From the NCBI GenBank assembly GCA_001816585.1, contig MHCJ01000003.1, positions 82,100-146,099 of the forward strand: a stretch of DNA of 64,000 bases, given 5' to 3'. Positions 2,368 through 51,034 of this stretch are shown in pieces. The position numbers were made by a program, and so were the translations under genes. Under the pieces are notes generated by a model that worked only from the letters and a program-made list of their open reading frames with translations, was not told the origin of the DNA and ran no database searches. Position 1 is the stretch's first letter, and each line of letters opens with the position of its first letter. Source of the stretch: Candidatus Chisholmbacteria bacterium RIFCSPHIGHO2_01_FULL_52_32 (GTDB lineage Bacteria > Patescibacteriota > Microgenomatia > UBA1400 > Chisholmbacteraceae).

Positions 2368-3759
2368 TTGACGATGAGATTTACATACACTGAATGTATG
2401 GAGAAAGGGAGGTTTTCCGATTTCTTTGCCCGTGAGGATGTGATGGTGGTTTTAACCAGCTCACCTGCGGGGCTGGGACATGTACGGGTCACGGAAGCGC
2501 TGCGCGGGGGGTTGGAGGAAGGGGTGCGGGTGGAGGTGTTGGGACTTGAGGATCAGTCGGCTCAAGGGTTGCATCGGGCGGCAAGCCGAAACGTGATTTT
2601 GCGGGCAGTTATGGAGTTCGTTCAGAACAACCCATTGGTTGAGGAGAGTTTTTCAGAGCTGTATCGGGAGCGGCTGCGAAGAAAAGGCAAGGAAGCCTAC
2701 CATCGGCTGGTTGAGCTGGTCAAAAGACGACGGCCAAAACCCAAAGTGCTGTTGATTGTTTCCACCCATTTCGGTCTAGGATACCAGATAGCTGCGATCA
2801 AAAATAGGCTTGCCGAGGAGTTTAAACTGTGCGTGGTTTTGGCAGTGGTAGTGACCGACGATTCGCCGCAGAAGGTGTGGGGAGTGGTCGGTGCGGATTT
2901 TCTGTTTGTTCCAAGTCTAACCACAAAAGAATCTCTGGAAAGATACATGATGAGAATTACCAGAATTGTGCCGGAGGTGTTTGTAGTGCCGTATCCGGTT
3001 TCCGCAGATTTCTGTCAGCCTTTAACAAACAAAGCGTTTGCCGATCGGAAGTTGCAAGTCAATCCCCGGTTCAAAGAGCCGATGAAGATCATGATTCCAA
3101 TATCCGGTGCAGCCGTCCAATTGAACTATATTGAGGAAATGATTACTACATTAGAAAAGGAGAGGATTGCCGACATAACCGTTGTCTCTAGGGAATCAGA
3201 CTACACAAAACGGTTTTTGTCATGGTGCGGAGAGAGAAAATCGGTACGGGTGGTCGCGGAGATACAGGACCGGGATGTCGTCGCCGGCTATGAGAAGGAG
3301 TATGCCAACTCGGTATTCGGAGTCGAGATTACCAAACCCTCCGAGCAGGCTTTTAAGGCATTGATTACCCCGAAGCAGCGCGGTGGGGTCATCCTTCTTT
3401 TTTCGAATCCGGTCGGAAGGCAGGAGAATGATAACCTGGCGTTTTTGGTGCGGCACGATCTGTTGCCGTCTCCCGCTGATCGGGAGGTTCTCGGGAGATA
3501 TCTTTCTACCGGCGAGCGGAGGCTTATTGACGCAGCATTTTTAGAACGGGCGCAGCATTGGCGGGGGTTACTCCTCCCGTCTTCGGGAAGGGATGCCGGG
3601 AGGGCAATTTTGAAGCTTAGGCAGTGCGGGGTTTTGTCAGCGATGCTTGATTTTTCAGGGTACATGGACCACCCGGAATTGCGCAGCGATGGTGTCAGGA
3701 GGATTTGGAAGAAACTTGCGACAAGGGTGGGGGAGAAGTGCGGGATAGCAAGTAGCTAA
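2368..3759 (+). CDS. GT-B glycosyltransferase-like protein (MGDG synthase/UgtP-like N-terminus)
   Basis: 463-aa ORF. N-terminal 'VLTSSPAGLGHV' resembles the G-loop of MurG/MGDG-synthase family enzymes. Divergent from the upstream glycosyltransferase. The start may instead be the ATG at 2398. Confidence 0.45.
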   Translation: MTMRFTYTECMEKGRFSDFFAREDVMVVLTSSPAGLGHVRVTEALRGGLEEGVRVEVLGLEDQSAQGLHRAASRNVILRAVMEFVQNNPLVEESFSELYRERLRRKGKEAYHRLVELVKRRRPKPKVLLIVSTHFGLGYQIAAIKNRLAEEFKLCVVLAVVVTDDSPQKVWGVVGADFLFVPSLTTKESLERYMMRITRIVPEVFVVPYPVSADFCQPLTNKAFADRKLQVNPRFKEPMKIMIPISGAAVQLNYIEEMITTLEKERIADITVVSRESDYTKRFLSWCGERKSVRVVAEIQDRDVVAGYEKEYANSVFGVEITKPSEQAFKALITPKQRGGVILLFSNPVGRQENDNLAFLVRHDLLPSPADREVLGRYLSTGERRLIDAAFLERAQHWRGLLLPSSGRDAGRAILKLRQCGVLSAMLDFSGYMDHPELRSDGVRRIWKKLATRVGEKCGIASS

Positions 3760-3880
3760 TGGCTAATGGCTGATAGCTGATAGCAGATAGCATATAGCTA
3801 ATAGCTTATGGCTAATAGCGGATAGCAGATAGCGAGTAGCAAACGGCTGATGGCACATAGCGTTTAGGGTTTAGCGTATA
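3760..3880. repeat. Cryptic tandem array of (A/G)TAGC-type 5-6-mers (tagctaatggctaatggctgatagctgatagcagatagc…)
   Basis: Directly visible. The same family recurs at 15114-15230, 45835-45860 and 61110-61150. Confidence 0.6.
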
Positions 3881-3934
3881 GCGTACAGGATGTAGAAAGA
3901 TTGATGATTTATGAAGGTTTCTCATGGGGACTGT

Positions 3935-27924: not shown

Positions 27925-28554
27925 TTAATAAAGTTTATGGACTCTAAGGTATTGTAGCACCGCTTTTGGGACAAGGTGGGCAATCGGAAGACGTTTCCCA
28001 ATTCTCTCGCGGATGAGGGTCGAGGAGAGGTTTGTGATGACTTGGTTTGGGGAGTCAAGCAGGGTCATATTGAGAAACTTCAAGTCGTTGGTATAGCCGG
28101 CTCGCGGGTAGATGTAAAAGGGAAGTTGTGAAAGGAGAATCTCCCAGTGGCCCCATTTGGTGAAGCCGCCGAGCTGATCGGAGCCCATTAGGAATGAATA
28201 ATGAATAGGGAATAATGAATTATGGTCGGAGAGATCCATTTTCCTTTGAAGATACTCCCTTTCTGAATGGAGTTTTTGCAGGGCTGCGTAGGTTTCGCCG
28301 GAGAGTCTGAAATCTACTTCTATGGGACAGCATTTTACCTTCGTTTGGACGTTGGGGGAAAGGGTGTTGATGAGGAGGTTTGCCATAGCAAGGCGGTGCT
28401 TGGCAGGGGCGAGGTTTTTTAAGAAGGTATGCTTGAAACAGGGAAGGATCCACAGTTCGTCGATGTTTGGGATGAGCTCAAACGCCTGCTCAATGACGAT
28501 CGCATGCCCAAGGTGCGGAGGGTTGAAACTGCCTCCGAAGAGCGTTATGTTCAT
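27925..28554 (-). CDS. nadD: Nicotinate-nucleotide adenylyltransferase NadD
   Basis: 'LFGGSFNPPHLGH' (H/T)xGH motif. Forms an operon with nadE. Confidence 0.8.
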   Translation of the reverse strand: MNITLFGGSFNPPHLGHAIVIEQAFELIPNIDELWILPCFKHTFLKNLAPAKHRLAMANLLINTLSPNVQTKVKCCPIEVDFRLSGETYAALQKLHSEREYLQRKMDLSDHNSLFPIHYSFLMGSDQLGGFTKWGHWEILLSQLPFYIYPRAGYTNDLKFLNMTLLDSPNQVITNLSSTLIRERIGKRLPIAHLVPKAVLQYLRVHKLY

Positions 28555-30238: not shown

Positions 30239-31360
30239 TTAGAGGGAGAGGATGTTTTGGATGTTACTGAAGGAAGTGGGATTTTTCCCTTCGAGTTGTA
30301 CCTGATCGAGGATAAGAATAGGGTTTAACCTGCCTGCCGGTGGGGCAGGGGTATAGGGTTTAGGGTATAGGTGGGCAGTTAAGATTTTCATCCGTTTCTC
30401 TTCACTTTTAACTTTTAACTTTTGACTTTTAACTTTTACTTTCGTCCAGATACCTGGCCAGGGAGAGAAGGCGCGAACAGCACGCTCGAGAAAATCGGCT
30501 CGGCCGACCGAAATTTTCTTGGCTGCTGAAGGGTTATCTTGAATGGCTTTTCTCTTCTGTTGTGTCTGCCATGCCTTTGGCCTGGCCGTCGCAGCCGGCG
30601 AAAATTTGTCGACCTCGCTCTGTTGAAAAACTTCTTTGAGCCGTTGATTGAGCCTATTTGGGGCGAAAAGTTTCCCTGCCATTGCCTGTTGGATGAGTTT
30701 CCAGGGAACAAAGCCATCATCGCGGGTGAGGCGGGGAGCGTAGGTGGCTCTCAGATGATCTTGTGCGCGGGGAGTGATCTTTCCTTCCACCCACGAGCGG
30801 AGGATGGTGATGAGGACTTCGCCGCCTTTAGAAAAAAGACGTTGGTAGAGCGTTTTTGAGGTGTCGTCCGCGCGGATTTCTTCCTTGAACTGAGCGATAA
30901 TCGGACCGTGGTCAAACTGCTCATCCATCCTGATGATCGTCATTCCGGTTTCTTTTTCGCCGGTGAGAATGGCGAACTCTCCGGGTGAGGCGCCGCGGAA
31001 TTTTGGCAGAAGAGAGGGGTGAAGGTTGAGACACCCATGCTTGGGGTAGTCGAGGAGTTCCTTTGGAATGAGTTGGGCGTAGTCAGCGACGATCGCAACA
31101 TCCAGCTGTGGAAGGTTTAATACCTTTATGGGAGTCTCCCTTAAAGGTGCGGGGGTTATGACGGGAATGAAATGTTCTTTAGCAAAAGTGTGGGGCGGGG
31201 TTTTGGTTAATATCTGTCTTCTGCCTACCGGACGAGGCGGAGCGGTTATTACGAGTTTTACTGGAAACCTCGCGTCTAATAAGGCTTTGAGGACGGTTAC
31301 CGAGTTTGGGGAAGAGCCAAAGAAGGCTAAAGAAAACGGTCGGTTCATCGAATTGATCAT
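30239..31360 (-). CDS. fmt: Methionyl-tRNA formyltransferase Fmt (with C-terminal repeat-derived insertion)
   Basis: N-terminal formyltransferase domain (…LNLHPSLLPKFRGASP…). A ~30-aa low-complexity insert 'KVKVKSQKLKVKSEEK…HLYPKPYTP' is encoded by the AAAGTTAAAAGT and GGGTTTAGGG repeat units at 30349-30445. Confidence 0.8.
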   Translation of the reverse strand: MINSMNRPFSLAFFGSSPNSVTVLKALLDARFPVKLVITAPPRPVGRRQILTKTPPHTFAKEHFIPVITPAPLRETPIKVLNLPQLDVAIVADYAQLIPKELLDYPKHGCLNLHPSLLPKFRGASPGEFAILTGEKETGMTIIRMDEQFDHGPIIAQFKEEIRADDTSKTLYQRLFSKGGEVLITILRSWVEGKITPRAQDHLRATYAPRLTRDDGFVPWKLIQQAMAGKLFAPNRLNQRLKEVFQQSEVDKFSPAATARPKAWQTQQKRKAIQDNPSAAKKISVGRADFLERAVRAFSPWPGIWTKVKVKSQKLKVKSEEKRMKILTAHLYPKPYTPAPPAGRLNPILILDQVQLEGKNPTSFSNIQNILSL

Positions 31361-31374
31361 ATACCCTTGTTGGA

Positions 31375-31998
31375 TCAGAAGAGGGGCGCATATGCGAGGG
31401 ATACTTCTTCAAGCTTTTCACCTTTTGCCTCGTAGATCGGGAGATTGTCTTTTACCGATCGGTCGGTAAAAAGGATGCCGTTTAAGTGGTCGAGTTCGTG
31501 TTGAAAAACCCTGGATGGGAAGTCAATGAGCGTTTCGCTTCGCTTGCGCAGGGCATAGGGTTTAGGGATTAGGGTAGAGTATTTGACGGTTACCCACCGG
31601 TGGCGATAGACGGGACCCCAGAAGCCCGGAATTGAGAGACATCCTTCGAGGGTGGGTTTTTCTTTGTTCGGACCTAAGGTCAGTTCAGGTGAGGCCTCGA
31701 TGATCTCGGGGTTGATGATGATTTGGAGGATCGGTTTTTCCTTGTCTTCCGGATCGCCCGATGGGGGGAGGAGGATGGCAAAGACGCGGAGGGTTTTACC
31801 GATTTGGACCGCGGAGAGACCGACTCCGCGGGGACTGCGGCTTTGCAGGGTATCTCCGAGATCCTTGATCAGGCGTTGGGTTTTTCTGTCGATTGACTGG
31901 ATCGTCTTTGAAGTTTGCCGGAGGATCGGGTTGGGAACGGTGAGGATTTTTTTCATTCCTCCATTATACCAGCTAGACTTTCGGGTATAGATTGACAT
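31375..31998 (-). CDS. def: Peptide deformylase Def (with repeat-derived insertion)
   Basis: 'GVGLSAVQIG' and 'HELDHLNG' motifs. The in-frame insert 'YSTLIPKPYAL' is encoded by the tagggtttagggattaggg repeat at 31553-31585. Confidence 0.8.
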   Translation of the reverse strand: MSIYTRKSSWYNGGMKKILTVPNPILRQTSKTIQSIDRKTQRLIKDLGDTLQSRSPRGVGLSAVQIGKTLRVFAILLPPSGDPEDKEKPILQIIINPEIIEASPELTLGPNKEKPTLEGCLSIPGFWGPVYRHRWVTVKYSTLIPKPYALRKRSETLIDFPSRVFQHELDHLNGILFTDRSVKDNLPIYEAKGEKLEEVSLAYAPLF

Positions 31999-32696: not shown

Positions 32697-35132
32697 CTAT
32701 TTCCTTATCTCATTCCTCTTCCCAGACACCGTCGCCAGGCGCTCAAGGGCGTTCAGCGCTGTTTGGTTACTCGGGAAAAACTCCAGAATAGCTTGGTACT
32801 CAAGTTTGGCGTCTTCGAGTTGGCCTTTCTTTTCAAAGGCTGCAGCTAGCGCGAGTCCCGCTGGTTCGTAGTCCGGCTTGAGTCCGACCGATTGTTTGAA
32901 TCCTTCTATGGCTTTATTTGGCTCATCCGCGGCATAGAAGAGACCGAGGTTGTAGGGGAGTTTGGGGTCGGTGGGGGCGAGCTCTATAGCCCGCTTCAGT
33001 GCTTTTTCTGCTTCTTGGCGATAGAGAGGATCAACGGCGGAAAGATGGAGCATGGTTGCGGCGCGGTTTTTCAGGAAATTGAGGTGTACCGGGTTTTGCA
33101 GAAAGACGAGATCAGAATGGATTTTTGCAAGCTGGGCAAACTGAGCGGACGACGTCGCTTCCTGGCTCTGGGCGAGGGCTGAGGCAGAGCGAGCCAGATC
33201 GAGACTGAGACGATCGCGGAAGAGCGGTTCGCCGGGAACCAGTCGCACCGCCCGCTGCATGAGGAGGAGGCCTTGACTGATTTTATCGGCATCGGAGAGG
33301 GCTTTGCCTTCGGTAAACAAGCGGTCTGCATACCAGCGGGTCATGACTTGGAAGAGGAGAACGATGGCTATGGCAATGACAATGATACTGAGGAGCCATT
33401 GGTAAAGCGACGGCTGTTTCTCATTTACTTCCTCCTCGTTGTTTATTGACGTAGGTTCTTTGGGACTTAGGGCGATGGCAAAGGCCGGAAACATGAAAAA
33501 GAGAAGACCGTCCGTGACCGTTGAGAAGCCGAAGAAGTTGGTGATGAGGACACCGAGGAAGCCAGAGAGAAAGGCGGGGAGGAGTGAATTATGAAGGATG
33601 AATAATGAATTAGGGGGGGAGTCGCTTTTAGTTTCACTACTATTCATGATTCTTGATTCATGATTCTTGATTCCTATCTGCCTGATTGACCAGAAGATAT
33701 AGGAGGCGATGAAGAAGAGATAGGTTCCCAGGCCGAATGCGCCCGTGGTAGCCAAGAAATTCAGGTATTCGTTGTGGGCTTTGTTGTAGAGGAAATCCCA
33801 TTCGGAGACGAAGTTGTGCTCGATGGGACGAAAGTTGTAGTACGAGTAGGCGAAGGTTTCAACACCGGAGCCGAACAAGGGCCAATGGCGCCAGACTTCA
33901 ATGGCGCCGCGCCAGACAATTTTTCGAATTTCGCCGGATTCCGTTCCTCCAAGTTCCGCGAGCGGAGCTTTCGAAAGTGCAGCTTCACTTTGGGCGGTTT
34001 CCGTGGTTGGCCCAATCCGGTTTATGATTGACATTGCGGACGGAGTGAAGGGGGTGCCTACCACTGCCGTTAAAAGGAGAATGAGGCTCGTTGTCACAAG
34101 GAAAGATTTTGCCGCTTGTTTTTGTTGTCGGACGGTTCGCCAAGCGAGGAGCCAAAACGCTCCATACATGAGTGTAAATCCCAGGAGTCCGGAGCGGGAT
34201 TTGGTGTAGAGGAGGGTGAGGAAAAAGATACCAAACAGCGTGTACGGCATAAGGATTGAAAACGCTCGTGGTGCAACAATTTTTTGGTCGCTAACGGTTG
34301 CATTTCCAGCGCTTGCCTTTGATGGAGGATTTACCAGGCCGATTGCCTGGCCTAAGCGACGCGCAAAATTGGCGCCCCGCGCGTTTCTGTCTAAAAGTTG
34401 TTTCTCTGAAAGGAGAGGGGTGAGCGTGAGGGGGGTGACCATGACGAGAAGGGCAGCGAGCCAGTTGGGTTGACCCAGGGTTGAAAATACCCGATTGCGA
34501 ACATCCTGTACCCAATAGTTTTCATCAATACCGAAGTGCTCGAGGATTCCGTAGAGAGAAACGATGGTGGTAGAGATGATGAGGAAGAAGAGAGAGAGCT
34601 TAAGCGGCGAGGTCGGCGAACGAAATTTCTTTGGCTGCATACGGTTCGATTTAGTTGCTGATTCTTTTCCTGTTTCGCCTGCAAGGTTGCTAGCCTTGCC
34701 TATCCAGCCAGCAGAAATTTGTTCCCCGCCCTCTCGTTTATAAGAGAGAAATGATGACATGTTTGAAACAAACGCGTAGTAGAGCAGGATGTAGGAGATG
34801 GTTGAGAAGAGACCACCGTGGAATCGGGAGTAGTATCCGAAGAGCGAGGTGTGCGGCTCGATAGAAAGGACGGTGCTTGCGACTTGGGAGATTAAAAAGA
34901 GCAGGATGGGGATATCCAATGGCGTTTTTCTAAAGAGAATACGCTTTTTTATCACCATCCTTATCAACCATGAAGCGGTAATGATGATCGTTCCCAGGTA
35001 CACCGTTATCATTTTATTGAACTGGAAGAGTTCGACGTGGCCGGGGAGAAAGATGAGGGGGACAGCGAAGAACAGGGTGTAGAAGGTGAGGCGGATGGTT
35101 TTGTGGGCTATGGCTTCACTATCCATGAGCAT
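32697..35132 (-). CDS. Large polytopic membrane protein, O-antigen-ligase/polymerase-like N-terminus with C-terminal TPR repeats
   Basis: 811 aa with more than 10 predicted TM helices, then a TPR-like C-terminus (…AYQAILEFFPSNQTALNALERLA…). It carries an in-frame ATTCATGATTC-repeat insert at 33586-33675. Confidence 0.6.
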   Translation of the reverse strand: MLMDSEAIAHKTIRLTFYTLFFAVPLIFLPGHVELFQFNKMITVYLGTIIITASWLIRMVIKKRILFRKTPLDIPILLFLISQVASTVLSIEPHTSLFGYYSRFHGGLFSTISYILLYYAFVSNMSSFLSYKREGGEQISAGWIGKASNLAGETGKESATKSNRMQPKKFRSPTSPLKLSLFFLIISTTIVSLYGILEHFGIDENYWVQDVRNRVFSTLGQPNWLAALLVMVTPLTLTPLLSEKQLLDRNARGANFARRLGQAIGLVNPPSKASAGNATVSDQKIVAPRAFSILMPYTLFGIFFLTLLYTKSRSGLLGFTLMYGAFWLLAWRTVRQQKQAAKSFLVTTSLILLLTAVVGTPFTPSAMSIINRIGPTTETAQSEAALSKAPLAELGGTESGEIRKIVWRGAIEVWRHWPLFGSGVETFAYSYYNFRPIEHNFVSEWDFLYNKAHNEYLNFLATTGAFGLGTYLFFIASYIFWSIRQIGIKNHESRIMNSSETKSDSPPNSLFILHNSLLPAFLSGFLGVLITNFFGFSTVTDGLLFFMFPAFAIALSPKEPTSINNEEEVNEKQPSLYQWLLSIIVIAIAIVLLFQVMTRWYADRLFTEGKALSDADKISQGLLLMQRAVRLVPGEPLFRDRLSLDLARSASALAQSQEATSSAQFAQLAKIHSDLVFLQNPVHLNFLKNRAATMLHLSAVDPLYRQEAEKALKRAIELAPTDPKLPYNLGLFYAADEPNKAIEGFKQSVGLKPDYEPAGLALAAAFEKKGQLEDAKLEYQAILEFFPSNQTALNALERLATVSGKRNEIRK

Positions 35133-37046: not shown

Positions 37047-37150
37047 TTAAAAGTTTCAAGTTAAAAATTCAAAGTTACAGTTTAATATTCAACATTGAAA
37101 CACTATCACTCATTCTTCTCTAATGCCTTTAACTTTTCACTTTTGACTTT
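37040..37150. repeat. AT-rich palindromic repeat block (AAAGTT/AACTTT family)
   Basis: 'gttaaaagtttcaagttaaaaattcaaagttacag…ctttaacttttcacttttgactttgatctttacac'. Confidence 0.45.
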
Positions 37151-37185
37151 GATCTTTACACTTCTCTTCCTGTATACTGCTGTCG

Positions 37186-38594: not shown

Positions 38595-38690
38595 GGGCGA
38601 GAGTACAAAGTGAAAAGTTTCAGAGAAGAATAAAGAATATCATTCCCAATTTTGAACTTTTAATTTTTAACTTTTACCAAATCTGGGGTT
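38595..38690. repeat. AT-rich palindromic repeat block (AAAGTT/AACTTT family)
   Basis: 'caaagtgaaaagtttcag…ttttgaacttttaatttttaacttttacc'. Confidence 0.45.
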
Positions 38691-40856: not shown

Positions 40857-40900
40857 TACGAAATTCGAAGCACGAAGCACGAAATTCGAAACAAATTCGA
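40857..40900. repeat. CGAAATTCGAA-type palindromic repeats (left flank of four-helix-bundle gene)
   Basis: 'cgaaattcgaagcacgaagcacgaaattcgaaacaaattcgaat'. The right flank at 41274-41335 holds the perfect 16-bp palindrome CGAAATTCGAATTTCG. Confidence 0.5.
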
Positions 40901-41266
40901 ATGACAAAAATTCAAAATTCAAAACGATATGATCTTGAAGAGAGATCCTTTCGCTTCAGTAAGAGGGTTAGAGATTATACGAGAGAGCTTCCTAAAGGAA
41001 TGGCCAATCGGGAGTATATAAGACAACTTCTTCGGTCATCCGCCTCAATAGGGGCGAACTACATAGAAGCAAATGAATCGTTAAGTAAGAAGGATTTCTT
41101 GATGAGAATCAAGATCTGCCGCAAAGAGGCAAAGGAAAGTTGCTACTGGTTGCGGTTAGTAGAGGTTGGAAGTAATCGAGAGTTGGAGCGAGAGCGAGCG
41201 GATCTCACTAAGGAATCTTCAGAGCTAATGATGATCTTTAGTGCAATTATGAGGAAATCTGGATGA
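40901..41266 (+). CDS. Four-helix-bundle protein (23S-rRNA-intervening-sequence-type family)
   Basis: '…LLRSSASIGANYIEANESLSKKDFLMRIKICRKEAKESCYWLRLV…' matches the conserved core of this family (…RSA.SI..NIAEG…KDF…E…Y…L). Confidence 0.6.
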   Translation: MTKIQNSKRYDLEERSFRFSKRVRDYTRELPKGMANREYIRQLLRSSASIGANYIEANESLSKKDFLMRIKICRKEAKESCYWLRLVEVGSNRELERERADLTKESSELMMIFSAIMRKSG

Positions 41267-41340
41267 TGTTTATGTGTTTTGAATTTAGAATTTAGATATT
41301 GTTTCGGATTTCGAAATTCGAATTTCGGATTTTCTGATAT

Positions 41341-42450
41341 ATGGCTGAAATCGATCAGACTGAACGTGCTTACCGAGCGGCGGTGTATGAAGTGGATGGG
41401 ATCGGGCCGGCGAGGATGAAGGTTTTGTTGTCTGCCTTTGGCAGTGCAGAGAAGGTTTGGGGAACGGAAGAGAAGAAATTTCGTGAGATTGGGCTTTCCG
41501 GGGCGATTGTATCGGAGATCCGTAAAAAACGGGCAACAGTAGAACCGAAAAATCATCTTGCGGCTTTAGCAAAGCTTGGGATCCGTGTTTTAGTCATAGA
41601 AGACGAAGAGTACCCGGAACTTCTTAAAAAGATTGATGATTCCCCGCAAGTCTTATTTGTCAGAGGGCACTTTGATGCTTCGGACGCACGGGCAATCGCG
41701 GTGGTGGGAACGCGGAAGCCGACACCCTACGGGAGAGAGGTGACCGAGCGGTTGGTTGAACAATTGGTGGCGCTGGGATTTACCATCGTGTCGGGATTGG
41801 CTCGGGGAATAGACGGGATTGCCCATCGGACCGCTTTGGCAAGCGGAGGGAGGACCATTGGGGTTTTGGCGGGAGGGGTGGATCGGGTTTACCCGCCGGA
41901 GCATGTGGGGCTTGCGGAGGATATCTCAAAGCACGGAGCCGTGGTTTCCGAATTTGCGCCGGGTAAGTTGCCGATACCGGGGAATTTTCCGGCGAGGAAT
42001 CGCGTTATTTCCGGGCTGGCTTTGGGGGTGTTGGTCACGGAGGGGGCGGCAAAATCGGGGAGCAAAATTACCGCTACCTGGGCAGCGGAACAGGGGAGGG
42101 AGGTGTTTGCGGTACCGGGGCCGATAACAAGCCACCTTTCGCAGGCGCCAGCCGACTTGATCAAACTTGGGGCAAAGGTGGTGACGGATGTTTCGGATAT
42201 TTTAGAGGAACTTCGCGTACAGGTCGCACCTGTACGCGCTGGCGAAGTACGGGAGGTTGAAATTCCATTAGAGAATCTCGGTGCAGACGAGCGGAAGGTA
42301 TGGGAGGCGCTTGCGGACGGGAGTTTGCAGGCGGATGATCTTGTGCGAAAAGTTGGAATGGAAACGAGCGCCGTTTCGGCGATCCTCACGATGCTTGAGC
42401 TTCGGGGGTTGGTGAAGCATCTTGGGGGAATGGTTTACTGTAGAAAGTGA
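41341..42450 (+). CDS. dprA: DNA processing protein DprA (Smf)
   Basis: Rossmann-like core '…GRTIGVLAGGVDRVYPPEH…' with a C-terminal wHTH. Confidence 0.85.
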   Translation: MAEIDQTERAYRAAVYEVDGIGPARMKVLLSAFGSAEKVWGTEEKKFREIGLSGAIVSEIRKKRATVEPKNHLAALAKLGIRVLVIEDEEYPELLKKIDDSPQVLFVRGHFDASDARAIAVVGTRKPTPYGREVTERLVEQLVALGFTIVSGLARGIDGIAHRTALASGGRTIGVLAGGVDRVYPPEHVGLAEDISKHGAVVSEFAPGKLPIPGNFPARNRVISGLALGVLVTEGAAKSGSKITATWAAEQGREVFAVPGPITSHLSQAPADLIKLGAKVVTDVSDILEELRVQVAPVRAGEVREVEIPLENLGADERKVWEALADGSLQADDLVRKVGMETSAVSAILTMLELRGLVKHLGGMVYCRK

Positions 42451-42545
42451 AAAGTTCAAAGTTAAAAGTGAAAACTTACCATTCAAATTCAAAACTTGCT
42501 GTCAACTTGTCACTTTCAACTGCAACTTTTAACTTTTCATTTTGA
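42448..42545. repeat. AT-rich palindromic repeat block (AAAGTT/AACTTT family)
   Basis: 'gaaagtgaaaagttcaaagttaaaagtgaaaac…caacttttaacttttcattttgaactttaaac'. Confidence 0.45.
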
Positions 42546-42858
42546 ACTTTAAACTTTTTTCACCCTAAACCCTATTGCCTAGTGCCTATTTTTTGCATTC
42601 TGCAGGAAACCTTAAAGAAAGATTTCTTCCAGAATGCAGGAAATCACGGAATTGAGGGGGACGAGGGGGGGCTTTTGAGGGCCCAAGGTAAGAAGCCTCG
42701 TCGGCTCAAATGGTGCGATTTCCTACACGCATTCTGATTCGGGTGAATCCTGAGACGTAATGCAACGCAAGTGTTGTGTTGTCCAGGACTTTCCCGGATC
42801 GATGCAGTGAATAGCGGAATGAATGATGCTCCTCATGATGGAGGAGGAATGAGTGCGG

Positions 42859-45859: not shown

Positions 45860-47863
45860 ATGAAATTAGTCATCGTCGAATCTCCAACAAAAGCACGGAC
45901 ACTATCCCGTTTCTTGGGTAAGGGCTATCAGATCGAGGCGAGCATGGGGCACGTGCGGGATTTACCGAAGAAGAAGCTCTCGGTTGATGTCGAGCATGAT
46001 TTCGCTCCGGACTACGCGGTCGTTCCGGAAAAAGAGAAGATCGTTAGGAAGTTAAAAGAGGCTGCGAAGAAAGCTTCGGAGATTTTTCTTTCCATGGATC
46101 CCGATCGGGAAGGTGAGGCGATTGCCTTCCATGTGAAGCACCTGATCGGAGGGAACGGAAAGTTCCGGCGTGTCGTGTTCCACGAAATCACCAAGCCGGC
46201 TATCGAGGCGGCATTTCTCAAACCGCGAGGCATCGATAAGAACCTCGTTGAAGCCCAGCAGGGGAGGAGGGTGCTTGACCGTCTGGTTGGCTACACGCTG
46301 TCGCCTCTTTTATGGCGCAAAGTCAGACGTGGGCTTTCGGCGGGACGTGTGCAGTCGGTGGCTGTTCGTCTGATCGTTGAGCGGGAGCGGGAGATTGAGG
46401 CGTTTGTTCCGGAGGAGTACTGGGTGATTGGTGCGGATGTTTCCAAACTGACCGATCCGAACTCGGTGTTTACGGTTTGGCTGTGGAAGATCGACGGGGG
46501 AAAAGCGAAAGTATCTGACGTAGAGCAGGCAAAGACCGTCGTTTCCGATTTAGAATCTTCAAACTACACGATATCTTCGGTTGAGCGGAAGGAGGTTCGC
46601 AAACATCCATACCCGCCGTTTACCACTTCGACCTTACAGCAAAGCGCTTCGAACCTGTTCCATATGACCGCCAAGCAGACGATGCGGCTCGCCCAAACAC
46701 TGTACGAGTTGGGACACATTACGTACCACCGTACCGATAGCGTTCACCTGGCACCCGAGGCGGTTGCGGCGGCACGGTCCTTTATTCAGAAAACCTACGG
46801 AGATGCCTATCTTCCCGAGAAACCGAGGTTCTATAAAGTGCAGAGTAAGCTTGCCCAAGAGGCACACGAGGCGATCCGGCCGACGCATGTGGAAGTTGAG
46901 CCGGATGCGCTTGATTTTCCCGACAAGGCCGGCGGCGGCCTTCGGCGCTTATACCAACTTATCCACCGGCGGTTTGTGGCCTCGCAGATGGCGGATGCAG
47001 TTTACGATCAGACGACGGTAGAAGTAATAACTCACTCAAAACTGAAAACTCAAAACTTAAAAGTATATCTCTTGCGGGCGGTCGGGAGTCTTCGGAAGTT
47101 TGACGGGTGGAAGAAATTGTTTGGTAAAAATAACGACGAACAGCAATTCCCGGAGCTTGTCACCGGGGAGGGATTGAACCTTGTCAAGGTTTTGTCGGAG
47201 CAGAAATTTACCGAGCCGCCTTCGAGGTACACCGACGCGACCTTAGTGAAAGCTTTGGAGGAGCGGGGGATCGGGCGGCCCTCAACGTATGCGCCGACGA
47301 TCTCCACAATTTTGGCCCGGCAGTACGTTACCTATGATGAGCGAAAGTTTGTCCCGACACCGGTTGGGATTGCGGCCAACGATTTCTTGGTGGGGAACTT
47401 CGATACGATCGTTGACTACGATTTCACCGCCAGCATGGAGGATGATCTGGACAAGATTGCAGACGGGAAGCGGGAATGGGTTCCGGTGATCCGGGAGTTT
47501 TGGGGACCGTTCCATTCAAAAGCGGAGGCCGTGGCAAAGAATGCCAAGCGGGTGAAAGTGGCGACGGAGGCAACGGGGGAGAAGTGCCCGGTTTGCCACG
47601 AGGGAGATGTGGTGATTCGGGTCGGGCGGTTCGGGAAGTTCCTCTCTTGTTCCCGGTTTCCGGAGTGCAAATACACGGCGAATTATGTTGAGAAACTGGC
47701 GGGAGTGAAGTGCCCCCTAGACGACGGGGATGTTGTTATTAAGCGGACGCGGCGTGGGAAGCAGTTTTACGGGTGCTCCAATTACCCTAAATGCAAGTGG
47801 GCGAGTTGGCGGAAACCGACTCCACCCACGGTCACTCCGTCTTCCACTGTTCAAACTTCCTAA
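45860..47863 (+). CDS. topA: DNA topoisomerase I
   Basis: TOPRIM 'KLVIVESPTKA', catalytic-Tyr region, and C-terminal Zn-ribbons (CPVC…C; CPLDDG…C). Carries a ~9-aa in-frame insert 'ITHSKLKTQNLKVY' made of repeat units (47028-47068). Confidence 0.9.
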   Translation: MKLVIVESPTKARTLSRFLGKGYQIEASMGHVRDLPKKKLSVDVEHDFAPDYAVVPEKEKIVRKLKEAAKKASEIFLSMDPDREGEAIAFHVKHLIGGNGKFRRVVFHEITKPAIEAAFLKPRGIDKNLVEAQQGRRVLDRLVGYTLSPLLWRKVRRGLSAGRVQSVAVRLIVEREREIEAFVPEEYWVIGADVSKLTDPNSVFTVWLWKIDGGKAKVSDVEQAKTVVSDLESSNYTISSVERKEVRKHPYPPFTTSTLQQSASNLFHMTAKQTMRLAQTLYELGHITYHRTDSVHLAPEAVAAARSFIQKTYGDAYLPEKPRFYKVQSKLAQEAHEAIRPTHVEVEPDALDFPDKAGGGLRRLYQLIHRRFVASQMADAVYDQTTVEVITHSKLKTQNLKVYLLRAVGSLRKFDGWKKLFGKNNDEQQFPELVTGEGLNLVKVLSEQKFTEPPSRYTDATLVKALEERGIGRPSTYAPTISTILARQYVTYDERKFVPTPVGIAANDFLVGNFDTIVDYDFTASMEDDLDKIADGKREWVPVIREFWGPFHSKAEAVAKNAKRVKVATEATGEKCPVCHEGDVVIRVGRFGKFLSCSRFPECKYTANYVEKLAGVKCPLDDGDVVIKRTRRGKQFYGCSNYPKCKWASWRKPTPPTVTPSSTVQTS

Positions 47864-48693: not shown

Positions 48694-48820
48694 CTGCCCA
48701 AGTGAGAAAGAAAGGTGATCGATTTTTTACGATTTCTTCTTTCCCTTGAGGATGATCGGATTTGATGTCGATATTGATGGTTGCGCCGGGTTTGAGCGGT
48801 CTGTTATCGTGGTTTATGAA

Positions 48821-51034
48821 ATGGCTTTATGGCAGGTTCGTAAACGAAGTGGGGAGCCTGAGGATTTCGATCCGGCAAAGATCACCCGGTCAATCGTCAT
48901 GGCGCAGTCCAATGTAGGGGTTACCGATGCCGAAACCGCCAAGCGGATCGCGAAGATGGCGGTTTCCGATCTTTCCGATCGGCTGGCGTCGGAGCGGGTG
49001 ATCGGGACGGATGAGATCGGGGATACGGTTGAGCGGATCCTGATTGACGAATCCCTCTATGTGATCGCCCGCGCCTATATCATTGCCCGCGAACGCAGGC
49101 GGCAGGAGCGGAAGGCGGAGAAGCAGTTAGGCGTGGTGGATGATGTCGGCCTGCCATACAATTCGGTCGTTGTCATTCGCAACAAGTACCTTCGCAAAGA
49201 CGACAACGGGCACCCGGTTGAGACGCCAAAACAGATGTTTCTGAGGGTGGCGCAGGCGCTGGCTCGGGCGGAATCTTCGAGAAAAGGGTTGTATGAAAAG
49301 CGGTTTTTCGATGTCATGGTTTCTCTGCGGTTTTTGCCCGGCGGGCGGACGCTTGCCAACGCGGGGACGGTCAATAATCAACTCGCCAATTGCTTTGTTC
49401 TGCCCATGCCGGATTCGGTTGAAGGGTTTTTTGAGGTGGTCAAGGCAAGCTCTATCCTCAAGAAGAACGGCGGCGCGGTCGGGTTTAACTTCGGAAAGAT
49501 CAGGCCAAAAGGGGACATTGTCGCCAGGACGAGCGGGAGGGCGTGCGGGCCGGTGGCTCTCATGAAGATCGTGAATGATGCTTCGGATATTTTGCTTCAG
49601 GCAGGCGGTCGACGGAGCGGGAATATGGTCATTTTGCCGGTATCCCATCCTGACATTTTGGAGTTTATCACCTGTAAGGAGGATGAAACGCTTCTTCCCC
49701 ACATCAACTATTCCCTGGGTGTGACGGGGAAGTTCATGGAGGCGGCGGCGAAGGATCGCAGTTGGAACCTTATCAATCCGAGGAATGGCGAGGTTGTCAA
49801 CACGGTTTCGGCGCGGTCAATCCTTGAGCTTGCCTGTTCCATGGCATGGAGAAATGGGGATCCCGGCTTGGTTTTCTTGGATCGGATCAATGTGGATAAC
49901 CCAACGCCCCAAGTGGGCGTGCTTGAGGCGGTGAACCTCTGCGGGGAGCAACCACTCCTTCCATGGGAGGCGTGCAATTTGGGCAGTATCAATTTGGCAG
50001 CGCACCTTATGGGGAACGGGAAACGGACCGTCGATTGGGAGCGTCTTTCCGAGTCGGTTCGTCTCGGTATCCGCATGCTTGATGATGTCGTGACAGTGTG
50101 CGGCTATCCTCTGCGGAAGATCCAAGAGGTGGTTCGCAGCAACCGGAAGATCGGGCTTGGGGTGATGGGATGGGCGGATGTTTTGGTACGCTTGGGGATA
50201 CCCTACACCAGCGAAGAGGCATTGCGGCTGGCCCACCGGACGATGAAATTTATTCGGGAAACTGCGGAAGATGAGAGCCAGAGGCTGGGGAGAGAGAAAG
50301 GGAGTTTTCCCAATTTCAGAGGTTCGGTTTGGGAGAAACGGGGTTTCAAGCATTTTCGGAATGCGACCTTGCTTACCATCGCTCCGACGGGGTCGATCAG
50401 CATGGCGGCCGGCGTCTCGTACGGGATTGAGCCTTTGTTTGCCCTGGCTTTTTATAAAGAGGCGATGGGAGGGGTACAGCTTCCTGAAGTTAACAGCGAC
50501 CTCATGGAGGCGCTCCGGAATGCCGGTGTCGAGGAGAACGGGCTCTTGGATGAGGTGGCGCAAACCGGAACGATCCAGCACCTTACTAAGATTCCCGAGA
50601 GGATCCGCAGAGTGTTTGTGACCGCCCACGATCTCTCGATCCGCGACCATGTCTTTATGCAGGCTGCGTTTCAGAAGTATACCGACAACGCGGTTTCGAA
50701 AACGATCAATCTCCCGCATACCGCCCGGGTTGAGGATGTGGAAGCTGCCTTCGTGCTAGCCTGGAAGACCGGGTGCAAAGGGATCACGGTTTACAGAGAT
50801 GCGAGCCGAAAGGTGCAGGTCCTGCACGTCGGGAAATATTCAATAGACACAAGACACAAGACACAAGACACAAGACAGGGGAAAAAAGATGTCCCCGTGC
50901 AGGCTAAGAAGCTGCAAGCGAGTAAGCTACTAAGCTCCTCTTCCCTCGAGTGTCCGCAGTGCGGGGCGATGATGCAGATGGCGGAGGGGTGTGCTACTTG
51001 CCCTTCTTGCGCGTTTTCGGTCTGCAGTCTATAG
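48821..51034 (+). CDS. nrdJ: Class II (adenosylcobalamin-dependent) ribonucleotide reductase NrdJ with N-terminal ATP-cone and C-terminal Zn-ribbon
   Basis: ATP-cone '…QVRKRSGEPEDFDPAKITRSI…'. Class II core '…NLCGEQPLLPWEACNLGSINL…'. C-terminus 'CPQCG…CATCPSC'. Start trimmed to Met at 48821. Carries an in-frame (ACACAAG)x5 repeat at about 50846-50877. Confidence 0.85.
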   Translation: MALWQVRKRSGEPEDFDPAKITRSIVMAQSNVGVTDAETAKRIAKMAVSDLSDRLASERVIGTDEIGDTVERILIDESLYVIARAYIIARERRRQERKAEKQLGVVDDVGLPYNSVVVIRNKYLRKDDNGHPVETPKQMFLRVAQALARAESSRKGLYEKRFFDVMVSLRFLPGGRTLANAGTVNNQLANCFVLPMPDSVEGFFEVVKASSILKKNGGAVGFNFGKIRPKGDIVARTSGRACGPVALMKIVNDASDILLQAGGRRSGNMVILPVSHPDILEFITCKEDETLLPHINYSLGVTGKFMEAAAKDRSWNLINPRNGEVVNTVSARSILELACSMAWRNGDPGLVFLDRINVDNPTPQVGVLEAVNLCGEQPLLPWEACNLGSINLAAHLMGNGKRTVDWERLSESVRLGIRMLDDVVTVCGYPLRKIQEVVRSNRKIGLGVMGWADVLVRLGIPYTSEEALRLAHRTMKFIRETAEDESQRLGREKGSFPNFRGSVWEKRGFKHFRNATLLTIAPTGSISMAAGVSYGIEPLFALAFYKEAMGGVQLPEVNSDLMEALRNAGVEENGLLDEVAQTGTIQHLTKIPERIRRVFVTAHDLSIRDHVFMQAAFQKYTDNAVSKTINLPHTARVEDVEAAFVLAWKTGCKGITVYRDASRKVQVLHVGKYSIDTRHKTQDTRQGKKDVPVQAKKLQASKLLSSSSLECPQCGAMMQMAEGCATCPSCAFSVCSL
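50980..51017. repeat. Direct repeat A (last codons of nrdJ); 35/38 identical to 52643-52680
   Basis: A reads gcggaggggtgtgctacttgcccttcttgcgcgttttc. B reads gcggagaggtgtgctacttgcccctcctgcgcgttttc. In the nrdJ frame both continue to encode …CATCPSCAFS(V/A)CSL and end in a stop codon. Confidence 0.7.

What the first reader, a model, noticed from the sequence alone, without database searches (positions are those of the whole stretch)
30349..31585. Intergenic repeat units inserted in-frame inside essential genes (RPE-like behaviour): fmt and def as exemplars
Fmt carries 'KVKVKSQKLKVKSEEK' plus 'HLYPKPYTP', encoded by (AAAGTTAAAAGT)n and GGGTTTAGGGTATAGG at 30349-30445. Def carries 'STLIPKPYAL', encoded by tagggtttagggattaggg at 31553-31585. 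The same phenomenon is visible in four other genes. In topA, 'ITHSKLKTQNLKVY' at 47028-47068 adds ~9 aa relative to E. coli TopA at that position. In nadD, 'SDHNSLFPIHYSF' at 28191-28225 comes from GAATAATGAAT units. In the 811-aa O-antigen-ligase-like gene, 'IKNHESRIMNSSETKSDSPPNSLFILHNS' at 33586-33675 comes from an ATTCATGATTC palindrome. In nrdJ there is an (ACACAAG)x5 insert at about 50846-50877. Every insert preserves the reading frame and matches a repeat family that is otherwise intergenic in this window. This resembles Rickettsia palindromic elements colonising ORFs.
Basis: seen in the sequence. Interest (0 to 1): 0.62.

Follow-up and report, generated by a model that had tools for sequence, protein, structure and literature searches.

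The report
In-frame heptamer repeats in essential genes
Short runs of a 7-base DNA repeat that litter the spacers of this uncultivated groundwater bacterium also sit, in frame, in surface loops of essential enzymes, and one run carries a nested 21-base mobile palindrome, which shows how repeats whose unit is not a multiple of three can remodel conserved proteins.

Summary
The window comes from Candidatus Chisholmbacteria RIFCSPLOWO2_01_FULL_50_28 (Microgenomates/CPR). It carries 21 strict period-7 tandem arrays against 0.15 expected, and almost none at other periods. Eight arrays lie in frame in fmt, def, nadD, a Wzy_C/TPR gene, topA and nrdJ.

The RPE reading is only partly right. The arrays are 20-46 nt heptanucleotide simple-sequence arrays of the cyanobacterial STRR / Xanthomonas / Beggiatoa type. 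They are not discrete ~150-bp palindromic elements.

They occupy hairpin tips and loops that orthologues outside the clade lack. Most are not recent insertions. The same protein sites carry heptamer arrays in other Microgenomates genomes, often in the same codon register but with a different unit, which indicates concerted evolution. One relative's assembly has lost exactly one unit, which frameshifts Wzy_C.

A truly RPE-like component does exist. The second Fmt array contains a nested 21-nt copy of a dispersed GC-rich palindrome (consensus CCTGCCTGCCGGCAGGCAGG). Empty and filled orthologous sites are both seen. In metagenomes and viral contigs the palindrome sits in phase in heptamer arrays and in frame in PheS, PurH, UvrA/C and PBP2.

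Verdict: a new variant of a known kind. The palindrome deserves follow-up.

The parts
30239..31348 (-). fmt (methionyl-tRNA formyltransferase), 369 aa as called by NCBI; the ORF extends to 31360
   Evidence: PDB Fmt hits at E=1e-42. 100% identical to the Chisholmbacteria protein P0001. Gene call in L084.
30404..30442 (-). Fmt array a: (AAAGTTA) about 5.7 copies, translated as KVKVKSQKLKVKS. It forms the tip of a beta-hairpin in the C-terminal domain.
   Evidence: TRF and codon view. It is 7 aa (21 nt, 3 units) longer than relatives such as P0009, which reads KVKVKSGEKRLKIL. L001 (37% identity) has the same length and register with unit AAAAGTC. The AF2 model places strand 304-311, turn, then strand 319-332.
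30350..30371 (-). Fmt array b, 5' part on the coding strand: CTATACC CTAAACC CTATACC (CCCTAAA family), translated as LYPKPYT
   Evidence: It is orthologous to the 5-unit array in L097 (HLNPKPYPLNPIL). It lies in loop 333-347 of the model.
30329..30349 (.). 21-nt GC-rich palindrome CCTGCCCCACCGGCAGGCAGG, nested in phase between units 3 and 4 of Fmt array b. It adds the peptide (T)PAPPAG(R).
   Evidence: It is absent from the orthologous array in L097. A related 18-nt copy sits one unit earlier in L098. It belongs to a dispersed palindrome family.
30314..30328 (-). Fmt array b, 3' part: TTAAACC CTATTCT, translated as LNPIL
   Evidence: It continues the register of the array once the palindrome is removed.
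31375..31956 (-). def (peptide deformylase), 193 aa as called by NCBI
   Evidence: PDB hits at E=5e-21. Gene call in L084.
31553..31576 (-). Def array: ACCCTAA TCCCTAA ACCCTAT GCCCTG, translated as TLIPKPYAL. It lies in a hairpin that is 5 aa longer than in array-free Defs.
   Evidence: It has the same length and codon register as the arrays in L081 (ACGCTAA), L004 (CCTACAA) and L010 (CCCACAA).
27925..28554 (-). nadD (nicotinate-nucleotide adenylyltransferase), 209 aa
   Evidence: Pfam CTP_transf_like in L084. Homologues.
28187..28224 (-). NadD array: (ATTATTC/ATTCATT) about 4.5 copies, translated as HNSLFPIHYSF. It is the second half of a ~16-aa insert.
   Evidence: The insert is present in many relatives (for example HYSLLSTHY and PKPYTLVPITY) and absent in many others, including L081.
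32697..35126 (-). Wzy_C (O-antigen-ligase-like) membrane protein with C-terminal TPR repeats, 809 aa
   Evidence: Pfam Wzy_C in L084. The orthologue in L081 carries TPR hits.
33585..33612 (-). Wzy_C array 1: (ATTCATY) on the coding strand, translated as NSLFILHNS. It is orthologous to the perfect (ATTACTC)x4.4 array in L081.
   Evidence: Six genomes carry arrays in this inter-helix loop.
33639..33676 (-). Wzy_C array 2: the inverted complement of array 1 (GAATCAW on the coding strand). It is part of a 51-nt segment absent from L081, translated as IKNHESRIMNS.
   Evidence: The hairpin it forms with array 1 is weak (z = -1.1).
45860..47863 (+). topA (DNA topoisomerase I), 667 aa
   Evidence: PDB hits at E=7e-147. 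Named as such by NCBI.
47033..47065 (+). TopA array: (AAAACTN) about 4 copies, translated as THSKLKTQNLKV
   Evidence: The loop is +9 aa against E. coli but has the same length in most Chisholmbacteria relatives. L096 carries (AAATCCG) and L095 a degenerate (AGCGTTN) at the same place.
48752..51034 (+). nrdJ (class II ribonucleotide reductase), 760 aa as called by NCBI
   Evidence: PDB 1xje at E=4e-104. Gene call in L086.
50845..50877 (+). NrdJ array: (AGACACA) x4.7 perfect copies, translated as SIDTRHKTQDTRQ. It lies in the linker between the catalytic core and the Cys-rich C-terminal tail.
   Evidence: L095 carries (AAGCGTC) and L096 carries (CACAAGT) at the same site. Two other assemblies end inside this array.
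42443..42591 (.). Example of the intergenic architecture: (AAAGTNA)n, spacer, (TNACTTT)n, then CCCTAAA units
   Evidence: It folds at z = -2.1. Similar modules lie at 20017-20145, 37043-37152, 38607-38679 and 60985-61125.
3744..3889 (.). Longest intergenic array, (ATAGCTR/ATGGCTA)n running into TAGCGTT/TAGGGTT units. A second array of this family lies at 15119-15228.
41273..41333 (.). Two intergenic arrays (GAATTTA and TTTCGRA) that are orthologous to arrays in L096
   Evidence: L096 has extra GAATTTA units and a 39-nt GC-rich insert between the two arrays.

Best explanation
These are heptanucleotide simple-sequence arrays, the same class of repeat as cyanobacterial STRRs and the GGGAATC and TAACTGA repeats of Xanthomonas and Beggiatoaceae. 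They are pervasive in Microgenomates genomes.

**How they arise and persist**
- Arrays arise and are kept homogeneous at the DNA level by whole-unit slippage and conversion. This step is inferred from the patterns listed below.
- Purifying selection then decides where they survive. They are abundant in spacers. Inside genes they survive only in structurally permissive hairpin tips, loops and linkers, and only as stop-free versions whose net length is a multiple of three. In practice that means steps of 3 units (21 nt, 7 aa).
- Once seeded in a loop, an array persists for a long time. Its unit sequence drifts in concert, so orthologous loops in different species are encoded by different heptamers.
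- The arrays are translated and give 7-residue-periodic peptides.

**The second layer**
- A roughly 20-nt GC-rich palindrome (consensus CCTGCCTGCCGGCAGGCAGG) inserts between heptamer units, in phase.
- In coding arrays only 18- or 21-nt versions, or otherwise compensated versions, are tolerated.
- The second Fmt insert in this window is such a composite: a 5-unit array plus a 21-nt palindrome.
For: **Shown**
- The enrichment is specific to period 7, in spacers and in CDS.
- About two thirds of the 33 relaxed-threshold arrays lie in or at the edge of the 13% of the window that is non-coding.
- Unit families are shared between loci: 64 similar pairs against 21.5 expected, with a maximum of 45 in the simulations.
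- Whole-unit change is seen directly. L083 lacks exactly one ATTACTC unit present in L081 and L082, and this splits Wzy_C into two ORFs.
- An orthologous spacer array differs in unit number between the window and L096.
- Fmt hairpin 1 differs by exactly 7 aa (21 nt) from close relatives.
- Concerted evolution in a fixed register is seen in three places. Def reads ACCCTAA in the window, ACGCTAA in L081, CCTACAA in L004 and CCCACAA in L010, aligned codon for codon. Fmt hairpin 1 reads AAAAGTT in the window and AAAAGTC in L001. The Wzy_C loop reads ATTCATY in the window and ATTACTC in L081.
- Arrays recur at the same sites: the Def hairpin in 6 genomes, Fmt hairpin 1 in 7, a Wzy_C loop in 6, and the TopA loop and NrdJ linker in 3 of 3.
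- The sites are a hairpin tip and a loop in the Fmt model. Distant orthologues lack the extra residues.
- For the palindrome, the empty site is in L097 and filled sites are in the window and L098, at different unit boundaries.
- After removal of the palindrome the flanks are period-7 in 9/81 metagenome copies and 11/90 viral copies. Other lags give 0-2 and 0.
- The palindrome lies in frame inside Pfam domains of PheS, PurH, UvrA, UvrC, PBP2 and others. It reads as an insertion against PDB homologues: +6 aa in PheS and +4 aa in PurH.

**From the literature**
- Heptamer repeats are the commonest long SSR class in many prokaryotes. They are mostly intergenic and close to gene ends, and are attributed to polymerase slippage.
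Against: - Slippage is inferred, not observed. The single-unit difference in L083 could be an assembly or sequencing error.
- Simple local slippage does not explain why the same unit families recur at many unrelated loci of one genome.
- At Fmt hairpin 2, L081 carries an unrelated unit (AAAATGG) where the window has CCCTAAA. That needs replacement or independent seeding, not drift.
- Homogenisation of an array inside an essential gene without passing through frameshifted intermediates requires conversion-like events, for which there is no direct evidence.
- Why the period is 7 remains unexplained.
- Only about 78 kb of the 1.16-Mb source contig was examined.
- The mechanism that moves the palindrome is unknown. 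No target-site duplication was found, and no associated transposase was looked for.
Confidence: 0.65

Rival explanations
1. RPE-like or MITE-like mobile elements. Pre-formed repeat modules transpose from spacers into ORFs and survive when they land in frame.
For: - The same unit families occur in spacers and genes.
- Spacer modules have a composite inverted architecture.
- The window's Wzy_C gene carries an extra 51-nt piece holding an inverted copy of the neighbouring array.
- Fmt hairpin 2 carries unrelated units in two relatives.
Against: - There are no element ends, no terminal inverted repeats and no full-length consensus.
- Sizes of 20-46 nt compare with about 150 bp for RPEs.
- Copy number is variable.
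- Arrays at orthologous sites keep the same codon register with concerted unit changes.
- The Fmt arrays have no palindromic fold (z = +1.7).
Confidence: 0.1
2. The heptamer arrays are by-products of the palindrome's mobility. The element makes a 7-bp staggered cut, and repeated insertion and excision at one spot leaves tandem 7-bp footprints that build up into arrays.
For: - The palindrome sits exactly in phase between heptamer units in about 11-12% of copies in two independent collections. No such signal appears at other periods.
- GC-rich hairpin inserts are present or absent between orthologous arrays.
- The idea would explain why the period is 7 and why units differ from locus to locus.
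Against: - No target-site duplication is detectable across all copies. At k=7 there is 1 exact match in 81.
- Most arrays in the window have no palindrome, and the window holds a single degenerate copy.
- Recurrent unit families across loci are not predicted unless the element has a strong target preference.
Confidence: 0.12
3. The arrays are functional signals. Candidates are phase-variation switches, translational pause sites, G-quadruplex sites, or binding sites for a protein that recognises heptamers. On this view selection, not mutation pressure, retains them inside genes.
For: - Arrays stay at the same sites across deep divergence.
- A one-unit loss frameshifts the surface-polysaccharide gene Wzy_C in one assembly, as in contingency loci.
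- TAGGGTT runs are G-tract repeats, like the quadruplex-forming heptamers described in Xanthomonas and Nostoc.
- Regulatory roles have been proposed for the TAACTGA repeats.
Against: - The unit sequence is not conserved at a given site. Only the periodicity is.
- On/off switching of fmt, def, topA, nadD or nrdJ would be lethal or costly.
- Arrays in the window are short and degenerate, which suppresses slippage.
- No known RNA family covers them.
Confidence: 0.1
4. These are ordinary ancestral protein loops whose codons happen to look periodic, or they are assembly artefacts.
For: Related peptides are shared with relatives at Def, Fmt hairpin 1 and NadD.
Against: - A 7-nt period cannot come from selection on protein sequence.
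- CDS segments with a lag-7 signal number 10 against 0-2 for control lags.
- Perfect 4-5-copy arrays occur in relatives.
- Arrays are identical in NCBI, ENA, JGI and Logan assemblies.
Confidence: 0.03

Closest known systems
Prokaryotic heptanucleotide long SSRs: cyanobacterial STRR and GGGGA(C/T)T, Xanthomonas GGGAATC, Beggiatoaceae TAACTGA
   Same: - The unit is 7 nt, with 2-10 tandem copies.
- Tens to hundreds of dispersed loci share unit families.
- Arrays are mostly intergenic and close to gene ends, with a minority intragenic (32% in Anabaena).
- Length varies between relatives.
- Slippage is the proposed cause.
   Different: - The lineage is CPR/Microgenomates. No paper in the searched library links it with heptanucleotide repeats.
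- Several unit families coexist rather than one.
- Arrays lie in frame in essential housekeeping enzymes, at sites that recur across genomes while the unit sequence turns over.
- Arrays serve as hosts for a nested palindrome.
Rickettsia palindromic elements (RPE)
   Same: A dispersed repeat found both between genes and in frame inside unrelated housekeeping genes, at positions compatible with protein folding.
   Different: - RPEs are discrete ~150-bp palindromic elements in defined families, each encoding a conserved peptide.
- The arrays here are 20-46 nt tandem heptamers without ends or a consensus.
- The nested palindrome is only 18-21 nt.
Small dispersed repeats (SDR) of Nostoc (Elhai et al. 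2008, Genome Res 18:1484; cited; the paper itself was not available, so details are from memory)
   Same: Very small (21-27 nt) mobile repeats with hairpin potential, reported as nested in tandem heptameric repeats. This parallels the palindrome-in-array arrangement found here.
   Different: - The sequence and the lineage are different.
- Here the element is a near-perfect 20-nt palindrome.
- It occurs in contigs of 31-71% G+C and in viral contigs.
- It is often in frame inside conserved protein domains.
REP / REPIN elements mobilised by RAYT transposases
   Same: Short (~20 bp) GC-rich palindromes dispersed in many copies.
   Different: - REPs are extragenic, species-specific and work as doublets.
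- This palindrome is a singlet and keeps the same 20-mer across very different genomes.
- 19 of 84 copies lie in long ORFs.
- Association with a RAYT was not tested.
Borg tandem repeats that create disordered regions in proteins
   Same: Tandem DNA repeats that arise at the nucleotide level and add new, rapidly evolving peptide segments to proteins (PMC9879509 abstract).
   Different: - As I recall, Borg repeat units inside ORFs are multiples of three and are longer.
- Here the unit is 7 nt, so each unit is read in all three frames in turn.
- Only 3-unit steps keep the frame.
Contingency loci (phase-variable SSRs of host-adapted pathogens)
   Same: Gain or loss of a unit that is not a multiple of three shifts the frame of a surface-related gene. 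The one-unit loss in Wzy_C of L083 fits this.
   Different: - Most arrays here are in essential genes, where switching off is not an option.
- They are short and, in this window, degenerate.

Membership tests
Rickettsia palindromic elements (RPE) | Discrete element of roughly 100-150 bp with defined ends | tested here: not met
   Arrays are 20-46 nt with variable copy number and no recognisable ends.
Rickettsia palindromic elements (RPE) | Palindromic (hairpin-forming) sequence | tested here: not met
   The Fmt arrays fold no better than shuffles (z = +1.7). Only the two Wzy_C arrays are mutually inverted, and that fold is weak (z = -1.1).
Rickettsia palindromic elements (RPE) | Copies of a family share a full-length consensus that encodes a conserved peptide | tested here: not met
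   Only 7-nt units are shared. Peptides differ with frame and unit, for example PKPY, KVKS and SLFILH.
Rickettsia palindromic elements (RPE) | In-frame presence inside unrelated housekeeping genes at structurally tolerated positions | tested here: met
   Six genes carry arrays. They map to a hairpin tip and a loop in the Fmt model and align to gaps in distant orthologues.
Heptanucleotide SSR / STRR-type arrays | Head-to-tail repeats with a unit of exactly 7 nt | tested here: met
   21 arrays against 0.15 expected at period 7, and none at periods 8-15. TRF confirms.
Heptanucleotide SSR / STRR-type arrays | Many dispersed loci sharing a few unit families | tested here: met
   AAAGTTA-like, TAGGGTT/ATAGCTA-like and ATTCATG-like families are present. 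64 similar pairs against 21.5 expected.
Heptanucleotide SSR / STRR-type arrays | Predominantly intergenic, close to gene ends | tested here: met
   22 of 33 arrays are intergenic or overlap a gene end, although 87% of the window is coding.
Heptanucleotide SSR / STRR-type arrays | Length variation by whole units between strains or species | tested here: met
   One unit is lost in L083. Unit number differs at an orthologous spacer array. Fmt shows a 21-nt step. No variation was seen among assemblies of the window's own population in the topA-nrdJ region.
Contingency (phase-variable) loci | Unit-number change reversibly switches a gene on and off within a population | tested here: inconclusive
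   There is a single case, Wzy_C split in L083. Read-level data are not available, and an assembly error is not excluded.
Small mobile palindromes (REP/REPIN, SDR-like), for the 21-nt insert at 30329-30349 | Short GC-rich palindrome present in many dispersed copies | tested here: met
The length and centre distributions point to one 20-nt consensus.
Small mobile palindromes (REP/REPIN, SDR-like), for the 21-nt insert at 30329-30349 | Orthologous empty and filled sites (evidence of mobility) | tested here: met
   The 5-unit array is empty in L097, filled after unit 3 in the window, and filled after unit 2 in L098.
Small mobile palindromes (REP/REPIN, SDR-like), for the 21-nt insert at 30329-30349 | Extragenic location (REP) | tested here: not met
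   19 of 84 copies lie in stop-free stretches of >=200 codons. Nine of ten examined lie in proteins with recognisable Pfam domains.
Small mobile palindromes (REP/REPIN, SDR-like), for the 21-nt insert at 30329-30349 | Cognate transposase (RAYT / IS200-IS605 TnpA) in the same genome | not tested
   Only 64 kb of the genome is in hand, and no search for a transposase was made.

The most novel reading that the evidence does not exclude
Patescibacteria, and some of their phages and other uncultivated bacteria, carry a two-layer repeat system that has not been described.

- The first layer is self-renewing heptanucleotide arrays that persist for long evolutionary times at fixed loops of essential proteins while their unit sequence turns over.
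- The second layer is an ultra-small (~20 nt) GC-rich palindrome, CCTGCCTGCCGGCAGGCAGG, that transposes in phase into those arrays and directly into housekeeping genes. It survives there in frame.

Together the two layers would be a general engine of loop gain and remodelling in the highly divergent proteins of these lineages. The palindrome would be among the smallest mobile elements known. Its insertion chemistry might even be what sets the 7-nt period.
Probability: 0.3. Interest if true: 0.8.

Novelty: new variant of a known kind. Interest (0 to 1): 0.62.

Why it matters
Repeats whose unit is not a multiple of three are expected to be purged from coding DNA. Here they sit in frame in fmt, def, topA, nadD and nrdJ. 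They recur at the same protein loops across a whole CPR class while changing sequence in concert.

This gives a concrete DNA-level source for the lineage-specific insertions that make CPR proteins so divergent. It also warns that such segments are poor characters for alignment and phylogeny. Genes may be miscalled as split where an array slips by one unit.

The nested palindrome offers a tractable case of an extremely small mobile element that enters essential genes without destroying them. It extends the RPE idea well beyond Rickettsia.

Tried and rejected
- **Genome-contig scan.** Relatives came instead from exact-protein look-ups. DNA for P0122 and P0130 was not available.
- **Second palindrome copy in the window.** The match at 38129-38149 lies in conserved MreC coding sequence with no insertion, so it is a chance match.
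- **Target-site duplication around the palindrome.** None was found for k = 2-10. There is also no conserved flank and no extension of the palindrome.
- **Inverted spacer arrays as stable hairpins or terminators.** Folding is only weakly better than shuffles (z from -0.2 to -2.1). This was not pursued.
- **Decayed arrays throughout coding DNA.** The overall lag-7 identity in CDS (0.2527) is no higher than at control lags, so there is no detectable background of decayed arrays.
- **Known RNA families.** Rfam finds only a tRNA in the window.
- **Population variation in the window's own species.** Nine other assemblies of the topA-nrdJ region show no array-length differences.
- **Literature.** Nothing links CPR with heptanucleotide repeats, and nothing contains the 20-mer. 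Mrazek 2007 and Elhai 2008 are not held in the library.


Full report
**Source and setting**

The window is part of contig MHCM01000003.1 (1.16 Mb) of Candidatus Chisholmbacteria bacterium RIFCSPLOWO2_01_FULL_50_28, a Microgenomates (CPR/Patescibacteria) genome assembled from a metagenome. G+C is about 51%. The plus strand has a strong excess of G over C throughout. About 87% of the window is coding.

**Observation**

Tandem Repeats Finder lists some 40 arrays of period 7. With a strict definition (three copies, at least 85% lag-7 identity) there are 21 arrays against 0.15 in dinucleotide shuffles. Period 5 gives 4 against 1.8, period 6 gives 2 against 0.2, and periods 8-15 give none.

At a relaxed threshold there are 33 arrays. 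Of these, 22 lie in spacers or overlap a gene end.

Inside genes of at least 120 aa, ten segments reach 15 of 21 lag-7 matches. Control lags give 0-2. The other two lie at the doubtful start of ORF 18401-18997 and at the 3' end of gene 60299-61009.

The unit families are shared with spacers:
- TAGGGTTTAGGG gives 9 hits against 0.30 expected.
- AAAGTTAAAAGT gives 21 hits against 0.24 expected.
- ATTCATG occurs at 18376-18407.

Overall, array units resemble each other more than random heptamers of the same composition do: 64 similar pairs against 21.5, with a maximum of 45 in the simulations. The NrdJ unit is the exception, with no spacer counterpart in this window.

The arrays in the topA-nrdJ region are identical in NCBI, ENA, JGI and Logan assemblies.

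**Are they insertions?**

Relative to distant orthologues, yes.
- TopA has 9 extra residues at this hairpin against E. coli.
- The Def hairpin is 5 residues longer than in solved Defs and in array-free Defs of other Patescibacteria.
- Fmt hairpin 1 is 7 residues longer, and hairpin 2 is 13 residues longer, than in most relatives.
- NadD carries a ~16-residue insert that many homologues lack.
- The NrdJ array lies after the last conserved core residues and before the Cys-rich tail.

An AlphaFold2 model of Fmt (mean pLDDT 87) puts array a at the tip of the hairpin formed by strands 304-311 and 319-332. It puts array b in the loop 333-347.

Relative to close relatives the picture changes. A syntenic relative (GCA_022564195.1; loci L081 and L095; Fmt 59% and TopA 72% identical) has heptamer arrays at the same sites but with other units:
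- (ACGCTAA)x4 in Def, gap-free against the window.
- A perfect (AAAATGG)x4.9 at Fmt hairpin 2.
- A perfect (ATTACTC)x4.4 in the Wzy_C loop.
- (AAGCGTC) in the NrdJ linker.
- A degenerate (AGCGTTN) in the TopA loop.

A second relative (L096) has (AAATCCG) in TopA and (CACAAGT) in NrdJ.

More distant Microgenomates loci fetched through Fmt show the same pattern. Arrays occur in the Def hairpin in six genomes, in Fmt hairpin 1 in seven, and in one Wzy_C loop in six. The unit differs each time.

At codon level the Def arrays of the window, L081, L004 and L010 are in the same register. They differ by the same substitution in every unit: ACCCTAA, ACGCTAA, CCTACAA and CCCACAA.

Fmt hairpin 1 of the window and of L001 (37% identity overall) has the same length and register, with AAAAGTT against AAAAGTC.

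The TopA loop has the same length in most Chisholmbacteria relatives.

The NadD insert is shared by many relatives, with heptamer-type peptides such as HYSLLSTHY or PKPYTLVPITY.

So most of these arrays are old residents of their loops. They are kept periodic by concerted change and are not fresh insertions.

**Evidence for the dynamics**
- One assembly of the relative's population (L083) lacks exactly one ATTACTC unit. The Wzy_C gene is then called as two ORFs.
- An orthologous spacer array differs in unit number between the window and L096.
- Fmt hairpin 1 differs from close relatives by exactly 21 nt.
- Two other assemblies of the window's population end inside the NrdJ array.

These facts fit whole-unit slippage, with selection allowing only frame-preserving outcomes in essential genes.

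A perfect CCCTAAA or TTTAGGG run of three units contains a stop codon in every frame. In Fmt and Def this family appears only as short or variant runs such as CCCTATA. That restriction follows directly from the sequence.

**The nested palindrome**

Comparing Fmt hairpin 2 at DNA level shows three states.
- L097 has five in-frame units of the CCCTAAA family.
- The window has the same five units with the 21-nt palindrome CCTGCCCCACCGGCAGGCAGG (30329-30349) between units 3 and 4.
- L098 has an 18-nt perfect palindrome, CCTGCCTGCGCAGGCAGG, between units 2 and 3.

This gives one empty site and two independently filled sites.

The same palindrome family occurs in other fetched loci. It is nested in (ACTTTCG)n inside Fmt of L005. 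In L080 it sits at the centre of inverted AAAGTNA arrays. The peptide LPAQAG appears at the NadD array site of P0278.

A scan of viral contigs gave 78. Lengths are 18, 19 or 20 nt, the centre is mostly CG, and the consensus is the 20-nt perfect palindrome CCTGCCTGCCGGCAGGCAGG. Chance matches would not produce that distribution.

There is no conserved flank, no longer palindrome and no target duplication.

When the palindrome is removed, the joined flanks are period-7 in 9 of 81 metagenome copies and 11 of 90 viral copies. Other lags give 0-2 and 0.

Nineteen of 84 copies lie in long open stretches. Nine of ten examined are in recognisable proteins, inside domains of PBP2, PheS, UvrA, UvrC, GH115, PurH and DinB, and in DegT and Wzy_C proteins. 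Against solved homologues the palindrome-encoded residues are insertions: +6 in PheS and +4 in PurH.

The three copies seen inside Fmt genes measure 21, 18 and 21 nt, whereas the commonest form is 20 nt. This fits selection for frame.

**Comparison with what is known**

Heptanucleotide repeats are a recognised class in prokaryotes. Examples are TAACTGA in Beggiatoaceae, cyanobacteria and Bacteroidetes; GGGAATC in Xanthomonas; and GGGGA(C/T)T in Nostoc. They are mostly intergenic and near gene ends, with up to a third intragenic, and polymerase slippage has been suggested as the cause. The arrays here meet the defining features of that class.

They fail three of the four RPE features tested: size, palindromy and a family consensus.

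The palindrome resembles REP or SDR-type mini-elements but is often intragenic.

I found no paper in the searchable library that links CPR bacteria with heptanucleotide repeats or that contains the 20-mer. That library is incomplete.

**Verdict**

Spacer repeat families do occupy essential genes in frame at permissive loops. They are heptamer simple-sequence arrays with long residence and concerted turnover, not RPE-like transposed modules. The RPE-like behaviour belongs to the small palindrome nested in one of them.

I rate this a new variant of a known kind, with moderate to high interest. The interest comes mainly from the positional persistence with unit turnover and from the palindrome.

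Noticed in passing
window 30329-30349; L098:1357-1374; L005:10088-10108; L080:6957-6976; loci L099-L178 and L219-L296: A dispersed 18-21-nt GC-rich palindrome (consensus CCTGCCTGCCGGCAGGCAGG) is nested in phase in heptamer arrays. It also lies in frame inside housekeeping genes (PheS, PurH, UvrA, UvrC, PBP2, DinB, GH115) of many metagenomic and viral contigs with 31-71% G+C. No paper in the library contains the sequence.
   Followed up: partly
L083 compared with L081:5060-5090: One assembly of a related population lacks exactly one ATTACTC unit in the intragenic Wzy_C array. This splits the gene into ORFs of 467 and 266 aa. It may be phase variation of a surface-polysaccharide gene, or it may be an assembly error.
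   Followed up: partly
window 50845-50877; ends of L087 and L090: Two independent assemblies of this population end inside the NrdJ heptamer array. This hints at copy-number heterogeneity in the reads.
   Followed up: no
window 41255-41350 compared with L096:5530-5675: Orthologous spacer arrays upstream of dprA are conserved between species. L096 has extra GAATTTA units and a 39-nt GC-rich insert (GCCCTCCTGCTAGCGCCTGAGCGCAGCGAAGGCGGGCAG) between the two arrays.
   Followed up: partly
L097:347-1609 (Fmt hairpin 1): The Fmt of relative P0002 carries a different GC-rich mini-palindrome (CTCCGGGTCGGAG, peptide LPPGRRPSRVGD) inside the AAAGTNA-type array.
   Followed up: no
window 30490-30670 (Fmt residues about 232-290): A roughly 55-residue insert sits in the linker between the two Fmt domains. 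It is shared with P0002-P0004 and P0006, is not heptamer-derived, and is predicted disordered (pLDDT below 50 at residues 254-285).
   Followed up: partly
window about 34590-34710 (Wzy_C residues about 141-180): A 38-residue insert (GWIGKASNLAGETGKESATKSNRMQPKKFRSPTSPLKL) is absent from the L081 orthologue. It lies in a loop where other genomes carry heptamer arrays.
   Followed up: no
window 1-64000: The plus strand shows a strong and uniform excess of G over C (skew 0.04-0.28 in every 2-kb window), whatever the gene orientation. A paper on another Microgenomates genome reports an unusual compositional disparity between strands (PMC7143001, title only).
   Followed up: no
window 40859-41333: The gene for a 23S-rRNA-intervening-sequence protein (PF05635; 40901-41266) is bracketed by four heptamer arrays.
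   Followed up: no
window 26835-27908 compared with L081:12812-13684: NAD synthase is 357 aa here against 290 aa in the relative, so it probably carries further lineage-specific inserts. The longest ORF (to 28058) overlaps nadD and is probably not the true start.
   Followed up: no
L081/L095 genome: Within one genome, arrays at unrelated loci share a unit family. AGCGTYN and its complement occur in Def, TopA, NrdJ and a spacer of the relative. The window uses CCCTAAA, AAAGTTA and ATTCATG families at the corresponding sites. Simple local slippage does not explain this genome-specific sharing.
   Followed up: partly
window 5113-5184: A tRNA gene lies on the plus strand. It is the only Rfam match in the window.
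   Followed up: no
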